A stretch of 64,000 nt of DNA, from sequence record OR083247.1. One strand, given 5' to 3'. Source of the DNA: Escherichia phage Bf23. The position numbers and the translations under genes were made by a program. The notes beneath the pieces are model-generated. The model worked only from the letters and a program-made list of their open reading frames with translations. It was not told the origin of the DNA and made no database searches. Shown piece after piece: positions 32,058 through 32,177 of this stretch (position 1 is the stretch's first letter; each line of letters starts with the position of its first letter).

Positions 32058-32177
32058 AATAAGTCATTCTAGGCAGGATTCGAACCTGCTATCACTTGTG
32101 CGGACTTACGAGAACCATTCTTTCACTCGAATCGAACGAGCTTCTGCCCTAGCCAAGCTGGTTTCCCCATCAACCAC
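32058..32177 (-). ncRNA. about 120-nt composite tRNA-like RNA closed by a perfect 7-bp acceptor-like helix, with two internal T-arm-like hairpins
   Basis: ATTCTAG (32171-32177) pairs perfectly with CTAGAAT (32059-32065); T-arms GCAGG-TTCGAAT-CCTGC and GCTCG-TTCGATT-CGAGT; D-arm-like TGGTT-GATGGGGA-AACCA; no canonical anticodon arm. Confidence 0.35.

What the first reader, a model, noticed from the sequence alone, without database searches (positions are those of the whole stretch)
32058..32177. About 120-nt composite tRNA-like RNA closed by a perfect 7-bp acceptor-like helix
ATTCTAG at 32171-32177 pairs perfectly with CTAGAAT at 32059-32065 (minus-strand sense), enclosing a D-arm-like hairpin and two canonical T-arm hairpins (GCAGG-TTCGAAT-CCTGC and GCTCG-TTCGATT-CGAGT) but no recognisable anticodon arm. 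It sits in a 630-bp CDS-free stretch (31690-32305) between tRNA-Gly and the next gene. T5 is reported to make small stable tRNA-like RNAs of about 100 nt; this could be one, or a permuted or intron-like tRNA.
Basis: partly seen in the sequence, partly recalled or inferred. Interest (0 to 1): 0.6.

Follow-up and report, generated by a model that had tools for sequence, protein, structure and literature searches.

The report
Phage BF23/T5 tRNA-like "RNA2"
This is the already-annotated phage T5/BF23 small RNA "RNA2": a tRNA frame whose anticodon loop is replaced by a conserved ~55-nt module carrying a second T-arm, structurally well supported and found in several unrelated phage groups, with function still unknown.

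Summary
The 7-bp helix is 32185-32179 / 32072-32066 (minus strand). The window is phage BF23. GenBank AJ604530 already annotates this stretch as misc_RNA rna2, "tRNA-like RNA with unknown functions" (125 nt = window 32186-32062), and the T5 records carry rna2 too.

It is not two tRNAs, a permuted tRNA or an intron-containing tRNA. Rfam and ARAGORN call nothing there. Comparative analysis of 30 distinct homologs supports one nested fold: 96% of cells paired, 26 of 33 pairs with compensatory changes, 0 of 500 shuffles as good. The fold is a tRNA frame (acceptor, D-arm, anticodon-type stem, short variable loop, T-arm). CCA is encoded directly after position 73 in three lineages. The anticodon loop is replaced by a module: helix P4, a bulged invariant GUAA, a newly found 2-bp helix P5, a second canonical T-arm, and an invariant GAAAGAAUGGUUC strand.

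Frame helices drift freely, while the module's unpaired bases are invariant. Homologs occur in T5-like phages, two uncultured phages, and acceptor-less copies in Acinetobacter T4-like phages.

Best reading: a natural "tRNA scaffold" presenting a functional RNA module, probably a tRNA-mimic binding platform. It is dispensable in the laboratory. The target is unknown.

The parts
32062..32186 (-). RNA2 gene as annotated in GenBank AJ604530 (misc_RNA rna2, 125 nt: C-1, the 120-nt helix-closed element, then GACU)
   Evidence: 100% identity to AJ604530. Locus L001 1515-1639 maps to window 32186-32062.
32179..32185 (-). Acceptor-stem 5' strand AUUCUAG (element positions 1-7)
   Evidence: One search gives the position; all 7 pairs show double-sided changes (for example GACAAU/AUUGUC in KEY, GGGUACU/GGUACCC in Slocum, ACUGACC/GGUCAGU in L310).
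32159..32176 (-). D-arm UGGUU-GAUGGGGA-AACCA (positions 10-27). The loop carries the GG expected to dock on T-loop 1.
   Evidence: 5 of 5 stem pairs covary. D-loop mean conservation is 0.89 in class A.
32154..32158 (-). Anticodon-type stem, 5' strand GCUUG (positions 28-32)
   Evidence: helix 3 is 100% paired and 5 of 5 pairs covary.
32099..32153 (-). Inserted module replacing the anticodon loop (positions 33-87): internal loop GCUA/GCA, P4, bulged GUAA, P5, T-arm 2, J13
32146..32149 (-). P4 5' strand GGGC (positions 37-40). It pairs with GUCC at 32102-32105.
   Evidence: the outer pair switches C-G (16 sequences) to U-A (9). The other three pairs are near-invariant.
32143..32144 (-). P5 5' strand G42-A43. 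It pairs with U75-C76 at 32110-32111. New 2-bp helix.
   Evidence: G-C is invariant (30/30). The adjacent pair appears as AU (24), CG (2), UA (2), GC (1), other (1).
32125..32141 (-). T-arm 2: GCUCG-UUCGAUU-CGAGU (positions 45-61) with a canonical T-loop
   Evidence: One search gives the position; 4 of 5 stem pairs covary; 6 of 7 loop columns are invariant across all lineages.
32112..32124 (-). J13 strand GAAAGAAUGGUUC (positions 62-74), unpaired. Proposed D-loop analogue (UGG) for T-loop 2.
   Evidence: mean conservation 0.91-0.93. AAUGG is invariant in all 30 distinct sequences. The tertiary contact is inferred, not shown.
32106..32109 (-). Invariant GUAA (positions 77-80), bulged between P5 and P4
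   Evidence: 4 of 4 columns are invariant in every lineage.
32094..32098 (-). Anticodon-type stem, 3' strand CAAGU (positions 88-92). It is followed by the 4-nt variable loop GAUA at 32090-32093.
32073..32089 (-). T-arm 1: GCAGG-UUCGAAU-CCUGC (positions 97-113)
   Evidence: One search gives the position; 3 of 5 pairs covary and 2 are invariant G-C; the only Rfam signal here is 9 bits to the tmRNA T-arm.
32066..32072 (-). Acceptor-stem 3' strand CUAGAAU (positions 114-120). The discriminator G is at 32065, followed by ACU rather than CCA.
   Evidence: CCA is encoded directly after position 73 in KEY (A-CCA), L024 (U-CCA) and SIY1lw (G-CCA).
31982..32055 (-). tRNA-Gly(gcc), 10 nt downstream of the RNA2 helix. 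RNase P cleavage at its 5' end would define the RNA2 3' trailer.
   Evidence: The processing step is inferred.

Best explanation
The element is the rna2 gene of phage BF23/T5. It is a non-decoding RNA built on a genuine class-I tRNA frame, and the frame's 7-nt anticodon loop is split 4|3 by a ~48-nt insert.

Shown:
- The frame has a 7-bp acceptor, a D-arm with a GG loop, a 5-bp anticodon-type stem, a 4-nt variable loop, a T-arm and N73.
- The module consists of helix P4, a bulged invariant GUAA, a 2-bp helix P5, a second canonical T-arm one nucleotide further on, and an invariant 13-nt strand GAAAGAAUGGUUC that returns to P5.
- Frame helices change sequence freely with compensation. The module's unpaired nucleotides are invariant across unrelated phage lineages.

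Inferred biogenesis: the RNA is co-transcribed with the tRNA operon. RNase P cuts at the 7-bp acceptor and at the 5' end of the downstream tRNA-Gly. The 3' trailer is trimmed, and CCA is encoded or added. This yields a stable ~121-124-nt species.

Inferred logic: the tRNA frame acts as a natural 'tRNA scaffold' that supplies processing and nuclease resistance, and the module is the functional part. The Acinetobacter-phage versions have lost the acceptor and sit between two tRNA-type genes that can release them. So the conserved activity does not need an aminoacylatable end.

Most likely activity (speculative): the module's T-loop plus the UGG strand forms a second elbow-like or T-loop-docking surface. 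The RNA would then work by tRNA mimicry, binding or titrating a host or defence factor that recognises tRNA shape, without ever decoding.

My confidence by layer: identity and secondary structure ~0.97; scaffold-plus-functional-module logic ~0.6; decoy/binding role ~0.25-0.3.
For: Identity: 99.9-100% to BF23 AJ604530, with rna2 annotated there and in the T5 records.

Structure:
- RNAalifold independently recovers the acceptor, D-arm, anticodon-type stem, P4 and T-arm 1, and 21 of its 33 pairs show compensatory change.
- The explicit model on the unfitted alignment gives 93% paired versus 30-47% slid, with 0 of 500 shuffles as good.
- The CM alignment of 30 distinct sequences gives 96.4% paired and 26 of 33 covarying pairs, with every helix supported, including T-arm 2 (4 of 5 pairs) and the new P5.

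It is a single nested RNA, not a pair of tRNAs. The CM scores ordinary tRNAs at only 16-35 bits, against 63-148 bits for true members.

tRNA-type end: CCA is encoded after position 73 in three lineages.

Constraint pattern: 0 of 14 acceptor columns, 0 of 10 D-stem columns and 0 of 10 anticodon-type stem columns are invariant. By contrast GUAA is invariant in 4 of 4 columns and T-loop 2 in 6 of 7, and J13 mean conservation is 0.91-0.93. The discriminator and the first acceptor pairs are not conserved.

Distribution: about 435 phage records, mostly Demerecviridae; uncultured L008 (164 kb) and L310 (soil); and Acinetobacter T4-like phages Acj9, L097, L152 and AB2I2.

Class B: these copies have no closing helix better than shuffles. 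In L097 the element is packed exactly between tRNA-Gly and tRNA-Cys.

Precedent:
- The engineered tRNA scaffold (acceptor plus T- and D-arms, insert in the anticodon arm) is processed and stabilised in E. coli (PMC3753655).
- A 7-bp acceptor is a major RNase P determinant, and a tRNA-like Y RNA module is RNase P-cleaved and CCA-tailed in vivo (PMC4201824).
- Many RNAs and proteins recognise the tRNA elbow, and viruses mimic it (PMC4810234).

Accessory nature: T5Mos (deletion 30661-38625) spans rna2 at ~32962-33086 and is viable (PMC11464382; coordinates).
Against: - I found no expression, end-mapping, modification or binding data for RNA2. The annotation says only 'unknown functions'.
- The covariation-supported fold (-27.9 kcal/mol) is 6.7 kcal/mol above the MFE. 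T-arm 2 has probability 0.02 in the nearest-neighbour ensemble, so it would need tertiary contacts or modification to dominate.
- The T-loop 2 to UGG contact cannot be tested by covariation because both partners are invariant.
- No target is identified. No protein is conserved next to the element across lineages, and there is no similarity to host RNA.
- Most Epseptimavirus copies have a U2·U71 mismatch in the acceptor.
- BF23 and T5 do not encode CCA.
- The class B copies could be decaying relics, although their helices do covary.
Confidence: 0.55

Rival explanations
1. Pure processing or 'punctuation' element. The tRNA-like fold exists only to attract RNase P and the 3' processing enzymes, so that the long tRNA-region transcript is cut and neighbouring RNAs or mRNAs are stabilised. 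The released RNA itself would have no trans function.
For: - It lies within a tRNA operon, with no terminator between the neighbouring genes.
- It has a 7-bp acceptor plus T-arm, the classic RNase P determinant.
- The tRNA region carries several other helix-closed RNAs (RNA3, rnaIV, rna2H) between genes.
- It is dispensable in the laboratory.
Against: - Punctuation needs only the acceptor and T-arm. It does not explain a 55-nt module whose unpaired nucleotides are invariant across unrelated phage families while the acceptor itself drifts.
- It does not explain class B copies that have lost the acceptor but kept the module.
- In BF23, Epseptimaviruses and the Acinetobacter class-B copies the element lies directly beside a real tRNA that would already provide a cleavage site; other members (T5, L008) have no tRNA immediately adjacent.
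Confidence: 0.15
2. An aminoacylated tRNA-like effector. RNA2 would be charged by a host synthetase that does not read the anticodon. It would then act on the ribosome, in the manner of tmRNA, or as an amino-acid donor or EF-Tu ligand.
For: - Class A has a complete acceptor/T-arm minihelix and N73, with CCA encoded in three lineages.
- The only Rfam signal is to the tmRNA T-arm.
Against: - The discriminator (G, A or U) and acceptor pairs 1-3 differ between lineages, so no acceptor-based identity set is conserved.
- There is no G3·U70.
- No conserved reading frame exists in the module: the spacing between AAUGG and CGUAA differs by 1, 2 and 3 nt between lineages (14, 13, 16 and 17 nt from AAUGG through CGUAA).
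- The tmRNA score is 9 bits against a gathering score of 47, and ARAGORN's tmRNA mode finds nothing.
- Class B lacks any acceptor.
Confidence: 0.08
3. A decaying pseudo-tRNA, or a fusion of two tRNA remnants, with no function.
For: - Two T-arms suggest an origin from tRNA sequence.
- ARAGORN at low stringency sees two overlapping pseudo-tRNAs.
- The folding energy is unremarkable.
- The tRNA region is deletion-tolerant.
Against: - 26 of 33 pairs are maintained by compensatory substitutions.
- Invariant unpaired nucleotides are shared by T5-like phages, Acinetobacter T4-like phages and two uncultured phages that share no flanking similarity.
- About 435 phage genomes retain it.
Confidence: 0.03
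4. Two ordinary tRNAs, a permuted tRNA, or a tRNA with an excisable intron, mis-read by hand folding.
For: - Two canonical T-arm hairpins lie within 120 nt.
- The 4+3 nt flanking the module add up to the length of an anticodon loop.
Against: - There is no Rfam tRNA hit at E<=10, and no ARAGORN call at default settings or with introns up to 120 nt.
- The acceptor pairs position 1-7 with 114-120 across the whole element, and it covaries.
- The residual loop GCUA|GCA has C33, not U33.
- There is no group I intron signal.
- The outer frame is in normal order.
Confidence: 0.02

Closest known systems
T5/BF23 'RNA2' (misc_RNA rna2 in GenBank AJ604530, AJ604531, AY543070/NC_005859, AY692264)
   Same: It is the same gene. 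The window is 100% identical to the BF23 entry and ~96% identical to T5, and sits in the same position in the tRNA region.
   Different: Nothing differs in the sequence. The records give only 'tRNA-like RNA with unknown functions', with no structure, family or distribution. Newer genome annotations of T5-like phages, including the 2023 BF23 genome paper that used ARAGORN only, omit it.
Engineered 'tRNA scaffold' for recombinant RNA expression in E. coli (PMC3753655)
   Same: The layout is the same: tRNA acceptor stem plus T- and D-arms retained, and a foreign structured RNA inserted in place of the anticodon loop. The chimera is recognised, processed and protected by cellular tRNA machinery.
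   Different: The scaffold is man-made, whereas RNA2 is natural. That the frame serves the same purpose in RNA2 is my inference, not a tested result.
Bacterial Y RNA-like YrlA (Rfam RF02553; PMC4201824)
   Same: - It is a non-coding RNA containing a tRNA-like module with a canonical T-arm and D-loop-type nucleotides.
- The module is a substrate for tRNA enzymes: RNase P and CCA addition in M. smegmatis.
- Some examples are phage-encoded.
- The proposed roles are nuclease protection or recruitment of tRNA-binding proteins.
- In both YrlA and the RNA2 inner module, the T-arm precedes the D-type element.
   Different: - No Rfam YrlA hit covers the element.
- There is no Ro/Rsr-binding helix or GNCGAAN0-1G motif.
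- RNA2 has a complete normal-order tRNA frame in addition to the inner module.
- No rsr gene is in the vicinity.
tmRNA tRNA-like domain
   Same: An acceptor plus T-arm with a large insertion in place of the anticodon arm. The T-arm 1 sequence matches the tmRNA model locally.
   Different: - The score is 9 bits against a gathering score of 47.
- There are no pseudoknots and no tag ORF.
- RNA2 has a full D-arm.
- No G3·U70 alanine identity is present.
- ARAGORN's tmRNA mode is negative.
Phage T4 RNAC/RNAD (species 1 and 2 RNAs)
   Same: Small stable RNAs of 119-139 nt encoded inside a phage tRNA cluster. rnaC ends in a canonical T-arm. Their roles are unknown after 50 years (PMC3014915).
   Different: No homology is detectable. 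CM R1 hits only the T4 tRNAs in the T4 region, not rnaC or rnaD. Only short motifs are shared (ATGGTT, GTAAG), and they are not collinear.
Plant-virus 3' tRNA-like structures and other viral elbow mimics (PMC4810234, PMC4810235)
   Same: Viral RNAs that mimic tRNA shape, including the elbow, in order to engage host tRNA-binding factors.
   Different: Those are cis elements at genome 3' ends. They are aminoacylated with defined identity and built from pseudoknots. RNA2 is a free, processed small RNA from a DNA phage, with a real cloverleaf frame and no conserved identity set.

Membership tests
T5/BF23 RNA2 (annotated misc_RNA rna2) | Sequence identity and position matching the deposited feature | tested here: met
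   100% identity over 145 nt to AJ604530. The feature at record positions 5701-5825 corresponds to window 32186-32062. The flanking tRNA-Gly, rnaIV and promoter P13a are in the same order.
tRNA (Rfam RF00005 / ARAGORN) | 7-bp acceptor stem, D-arm, T-arm with a GTTCRANNC-type loop, and N73 (with or without CCA) | tested here: met
   All are present and covarying. CCA is encoded in KEY, L024 and SIY1lw.
tRNA (Rfam RF00005 / ARAGORN) | Anticodon arm with a 7-nt loop containing U33 and an anticodon | tested here: not met
   The loop is replaced by a 55-nt module. The residual GCUA|GCA has C at position 33.
tRNA (Rfam RF00005 / ARAGORN) | Score at or above the gathering threshold with a tRNA covariance model or tRNA finder | tested here: not met
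   There is no RF00005 hit in 32062-32186 even at E<=10. ARAGORN at default settings and with introns allowed gives none.
Intron-containing or permuted tRNA | An intron of a known class (group I or bulge-helix-bulge) whose removal gives a canonical tRNA, or 3'-half-before-5'-half gene order | tested here: not met
   There is no group I intron hit. ARAGORN -i gives none. The outer frame is in normal order. BHB splicing is not a bacterial pathway (established knowledge).
tmRNA | tRNA-like domain plus a tag-peptide ORF and pseudoknots; model score at or above 47 bits | tested here: not met
   The local score is 9 bits, on T-arm 1 only. ARAGORN -m gives none. No frame-conserved ORF is present: the AAUGG-to-CGUAA spacing varies by non-multiples of 3.
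YrlA / bacterial Y RNA | Ro(Rsr)-binding helix with the GNCGAAN0-1G motif, a tRNA-like module, and linkage to an rsr gene; RF02553 at or above 69 bits | tested here: not met
   There is no RF02553 hit on the element in the window or in L004/L317. The only hits are weak (20-23 bits) and span real tRNAs. The motif is absent from the sequence.
T4 rnaC / rnaD | Detectable sequence and structure homology to T4 species 1 or 2 RNA | tested here: not met
   CM R1 at E<=1 hits only tRNAs in L007, the T4 69-74 kb region. Visual comparison shows only short non-collinear motifs.
Stable, RNase P-processed, CCA-ended small RNA (the functional class of tRNA-like RNAs) | A discrete transcript with a tRNA-type 5' end and a CCA 3' end in infected cells | not testable with these tools
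   The only basis is the depositors' label and the structural determinants. No expression data were found in the searchable literature.

The most novel reading that the evidence does not exclude
RNA2 is the founding member of an undescribed family of phage 'double-elbow' tRNA mimics. A tRNA frame displays an invariant T-loop-based module that clamps or titrates a factor recognising tRNA shape. The candidate targets are a tRNA-targeting immune effector (an anticodon or acceptor-end toxin), RNase P, a tRNA-modifying enzyme, or the elbow of a cellular tRNA. The family would have spread horizontally between T5-like, Acinetobacter T4-like and uncultured phages as an accessory counter-defence or host-takeover RNA.
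Probability: 0.25. Interest if true: 0.8.

Novelty: already known. Interest (0 to 1): 0.42.

Why it matters
The gene itself has been in GenBank for about 20 years, so the finding is not a discovery. What it touches is a long-standing loose end: phages with large tRNA arrays (T4, T5) also make small stable RNAs whose roles have never been found.

This analysis provides:
- A covariation-proven structure, including a second T-arm and a new small helix.
- Evidence that selection acts on the inserted module rather than on the tRNA frame.
- Evidence that the same module occurs in at least four unrelated phage lineages, sometimes without any acceptor stem.

That makes the question testable through module point mutants, pull-downs and defence-system panels. 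It comes at a time when T5 tRNAs have just been shown to neutralise tRNA-cleaving immunity such as PARIS and retron Eco7.

The element is also a ready candidate for a new Rfam family, and a natural counterpart of the engineered tRNA scaffold. Current phage annotation pipelines miss it entirely.

Tried and rejected
1. Rfam at gathering and at E<=10: no family. The only signal is a 9-bit local match of T-arm 1 to tmRNA.
2. ARAGORN at default, with introns, and in tmRNA mode: nothing in the element. At -ps80 it gives two overlapping, mutually exclusive pseudo-calls, which I rejected because the acceptor pairs across the whole element.
3. 'tRNA-Lys' labels under BLAST hits: these are a real tRNA-Lys(ctt) immediately upstream of RNA2 in Epseptimaviruses, not a call on RNA2.
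4. Homology to T4 rnaC/rnaD: not detectable.
5. Host mimicry or origin: no blastn match in 5,426 E. coli genomes at E<=10. I noticed by eye a 7-nt complementarity to the 23S sarcin-ricin loop and a resemblance to the L11-binding region. I dismissed both as chance, because the central N is variable and pairs within the RNA.
6. Conserved protein partner: all-vs-all blastp of ORFs within ±4.5 kb across lineages found nothing shared beyond Demerecviridae.
7. Closing helix in the Acinetobacter copies: none better than shuffled flanks.
8. Coding potential of the module: the ATG in AAUGG opens no conserved frame (by inspection).
9. K-turn or UAA/GAN motif at the internal loop or bulge: the sequence requirements are not met (by inspection).
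10. The MFE alternative fold, with AGAA/UUCU and CGUUC/GAAUG pairings: it has lower energy, but its pairing of the variable N (alignment column 48 with 89) fails in several lineages, whereas the model's pairing (column 50 with 89) covaries.
11. A broad motif scan of bacterial genomes: 120 loci, all chance hits or ordinary tRNAs by CM.
12. Literature searches for function or expression of T5 RNA2: nothing found. One reference I had recalled from memory turned out to concern tRNA-Ser genes, so I do not cite it.
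Full report
**1. What is in the sequence**

- ATTCTAG is at 32185-32179.
- CTAGAAT is at 32072-32066.
- GCAGG-TTCGAAT-CCTGC is at 32089-32073.
- GCTCG-TTCGATT-CGAG(T) is at 32141-32125.

The helix-closed element is therefore 32066-32185 (120 nt), with a discriminator G at 32065. tRNA-Gly(gcc) at 31982-32055 follows 10 nt downstream on the same strand.

ARAGORN finds 20 tRNAs in the window and Rfam finds 19. Neither calls anything in the element. A permissive Rfam scan (E<=10) of 31640-32700 adds only a 9-bit local match of the 3' T-arm to tmRNA.

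**2. Identity**

The 691-nt region is 99.9% identical to the phage BF23 tRNA-region record AJ604530, and the element itself is 100% identical.
- That record annotates misc_RNA rna2, "tRNA-like RNA with unknown functions", 125 nt. This maps to window 32186-32062.
- It is followed by tRNA-Gly, rnaIV ("stable RNA with unknown functions", window 31834-31732) and promoter P13a.
- T5 records carry the same rna2 feature.

Most modern T5-like genome records leave it unannotated or cover it with a spurious "hypothetical protein". The 2023 BF23 genome paper annotated tRNAs with ARAGORN only and does not mention it (PMC10644984).

**3. Homologs**

BLAST finds about 435 phage records, almost all Demerecviridae. 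Divergent copies are in:
- Yersinia phiR2-01
- Salmonella SIY1lw
- Erwinia KEY
- Serratia Slocum

There are partial matches in Acinetobacter T4-like phages.

Motif scans of IMG/VR and of JGI metagenomes added the following:
- a 111-kb T5-like contig (L024)
- a 164-kb uncultured contig (L008)
- a soil-metagenome contig (L310)
- further Acinetobacter-type copies: L097 (159,801 bp) and L152

A tightened motif returns no further IMG/VR members. L008 and L310 have no close cultured relatives. None of 120 pattern-selected bacterial loci holds a copy. E. coli genomes have no similar sequence.

**4. Structure**

RNAalifold on an 18-sequence MAFFT alignment independently predicts the acceptor, D-arm, an anticodon-type stem, an inner helix and the 3' T-arm.

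My explicit model adds the inner T-arm. On that unfitted alignment:
- 93% of cells pair, against 30-47% when partners are slid.
- 22 of 31 pairs show double-sided changes.
- 0 of 500 shuffles reach the observed values.

A covariance model built from it scores true members at 63-148 bits. Ordinary tRNAs score only 16-35 bits, by skipping the insert. This shows both that the frame is tRNA-like and that the element is not an ordinary tRNA.

On the CM alignment (46 hits, 30 distinct), 96.3% of cells pair, 25 of 31 pairs covary, and every helix is supported.

A scan for extra covarying columns revealed a new 2-bp helix, P5:
- An invariant G-C.
- A neighbouring pair seen as A-U, U-A, C-G and G-C. 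The 3' partner is the "N" of GGUUC-N-CGUAA.

In element numbering (position p = window 32186 - p) the fold is:

| Part | Positions |
|---|---|
| Acceptor | 1-7 / 114-120 |
| D-arm | 10-27 |
| Anticodon-type stem | 28-32 / 88-92 |
| Internal loop | GCUA / GCA |
| P4 | 37-40 / 81-84 |
| Bulged GUAA | 77-80 |
| P5 | 42-43 / 75-76 |
| T-arm 2 | 45-61 |
| J13 (GAAAGAAUGGUUC) | 62-74 |
| Variable loop | 93-96 |
| T-arm 1 | 97-113 |
| Discriminator | 121 |

This was verified to be fully Watson-Crick/GU on the BF23 sequence.

The fold is not the thermodynamic optimum: -27.9 versus -34.6 kcal/mol, with z = -0.73. As with tRNAs, the evidence is comparative. The MFE's alternative partner for N is not supported across lineages.

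**5. What is constrained**

Across 14 lineage representatives:
- The acceptor, D-stem and anticodon-type stem have no invariant column.
- GUAA is invariant in 4 of 4 columns.
- T-loop 2 is invariant in 6 of 7 columns.
- J13 has mean conservation of 0.91-0.93.
- P4 is invariant in 4-6 of 8 columns.

The discriminator is G, A or U, and acceptor pairs 1-3 differ between lineages. No acceptor-based aminoacylation identity is conserved.

CCA directly follows position 73 in KEY, L024 and SIY1lw. In BF23 and T5 the sequence is G-ACU and G-ACA.

**6. Two architectural classes**

Class A comprises the Demerecviridae, L008 and L310. It has the full tRNA frame.

Class B comprises Acinetobacter phages Acj9, L097, L152 and AB2I2.
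- It keeps a GG-containing D-loop-like stretch, the anticodon-type stem, the whole module and T-arm 1. All of these show compensatory changes within the clade.
- It has no closing helix better than shuffled flanks.
- In L097 it is packed exactly between tRNA-Gly(tcc) and tRNA-Cys. In Acj9 it follows tRNA-Gly directly. Processing of the neighbours could therefore release it.

**7. Mechanism**

*Shown:* a nested, selected structure; a tRNA frame; selection concentrated on the module; a location in tRNA arrays (except L008, which has no tRNA within 10 kb); no terminator separating it from its neighbours; no conserved adjacent protein.

*Inferred from precedent:* RNase P cleavage at the 7-bp acceptor, followed by CCA maturation.
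- A 7-bp acceptor is a major RNase P determinant, and a tRNA-like Y RNA module is RNase P-cleaved and CCA-tailed in vivo (PMC4201824).
- The engineered tRNA scaffold has the same design: insert in the anticodon arm, with acceptor, T- and D-arms kept. It is processed and protected in E. coli (PMC3753655).

I therefore read RNA2 as a natural tRNA scaffold presenting a functional module. The loss of the acceptor in class B argues that the conserved activity does not need a chargeable end.

The module combines a coaxial P4/P5/T-stem rod capped by a canonical T-loop with an invariant UGG-containing strand. This looks like a second elbow-type or T-loop-docking surface. Elbows are recognised by the ribosome, RNase P, T-boxes and many proteins, and are mimicked by viruses (PMC4810234).

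The most likely activity is tRNA-shape mimicry to bind or titrate a host or defence factor. This step is speculative.

The T5Mos deletion (30661-38625) covers rna2, and the phage is viable (PMC11464382). That fits an accessory role. The same paper shows that T5 tRNA genes in this region counter tRNA-cleaving immunity.

**8. Rivals**
- A pure processing signal explains the frame but not the invariant module or class B.
- An aminoacylated effector is disfavoured by the non-conserved identity nucleotides, the absence of a conserved ORF, and class B.
- Pseudogene decay is contradicted by the covariation and by retention across families.
- Two tRNAs, a permuted tRNA and an intron-containing tRNA are all excluded.

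**9. Comparison and novelty**
- The element is a member of the annotated RNA2 locus and is already known.
- It works like an engineered tRNA scaffold.
- It resembles YrlA in carrying a tRNA-type module.
- It is not a member of tRNA, tmRNA or YrlA, nor demonstrably of T4 rnaC/rnaD (membership table).
- T4 RNAC and RNAD likewise have unknown roles (PMC3014915).

Beyond the database entry, this work adds:
- the covariation-proven fold, with P5 and the GUAA bulge
- the frame-versus-module selection pattern
- the wider distribution and the acceptor-less class
- the observation that no Rfam family exists for it

**10. Verdict**

The finding is a real, correctly interpreted, but already annotated feature. 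Interest is moderate. It is an old orphan RNA that is now well enough defined to be tested, in a genomic region of current interest for phage counter-defence.

Noticed in passing
window 32196-32302 (minus strand): An unannotated ~107-nt segment lies between the stop of ORF trn2.10 (32308) and RNA2. It is closed by a 10-11-bp helix (UUUCAGUGCAG / CUUGCACUGAAA) and has a GUCC-AAGACUC-GGAC hairpin near its 3' end. It is conserved upstream of RNA2 in Tequintavirus loci and in Salmonella phage AKM_ECS. In most Epseptimaviruses a tRNA-Lys(ctt) occupies that position instead.
   Followed up: partly
window 32980-33053 (minus strand): RNA3 of AJ604530 ('tRNA-like RNA with unknown functions', 74 nt) directly follows tRNA-Asn. 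It has an acceptor-like closure, an ACCA 3' end and a T-arm-like hairpin with an 8-nt loop. Neither ARAGORN nor Rfam calls it.
   Followed up: partly
window 31732-31834 and 30417-30588 (minus strand): rnaIV (103 nt) and rna2H (172 nt), both labelled 'stable RNA with unknown functions', are each closed by a long terminal helix. CM R1 does not match them, so they are not RNA2 paralogs.
   Followed up: partly
L004 (Acj9) ~1573-1660; L317 (AB2I2) ~610-700: Immediately after the acceptor-less RNA2-like element in Acinetobacter phages lies a conserved ~88-nt sequence, GGAAAG...CUUUCCGCCA. It has an acceptor-like closure plus GCCA, and neither ARAGORN nor Rfam recognises it. It may be another unusual tRNA-like RNA.
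   Followed up: partly
L004 220-292; L152 6751-6823: ARAGORN labels tRNAs with a CUA anticodon ('tRNA-Pyl') in Acinetobacter T4-like phages. These are amber-suppressor-type tRNAs within the same arrays.
   Followed up: no
window 30839-31312 and 33109-33627 (minus strand): Two paralogous ORFs (157 and 172 aa) are interspersed among the tRNA genes. They share the motif EGFVY-I-NPAW...YKIGM, and homologs are present in other Demerecviridae loci (L024, L030).
   Followed up: no
phage database records in general: In many deposited T5-like genomes the RNA2 locus is either unannotated or covered by a spurious 'hypothetical protein' CDS. Examples include phiR2-01 g056, Slocum gene 106 and Acj9p148.
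   Followed up: no
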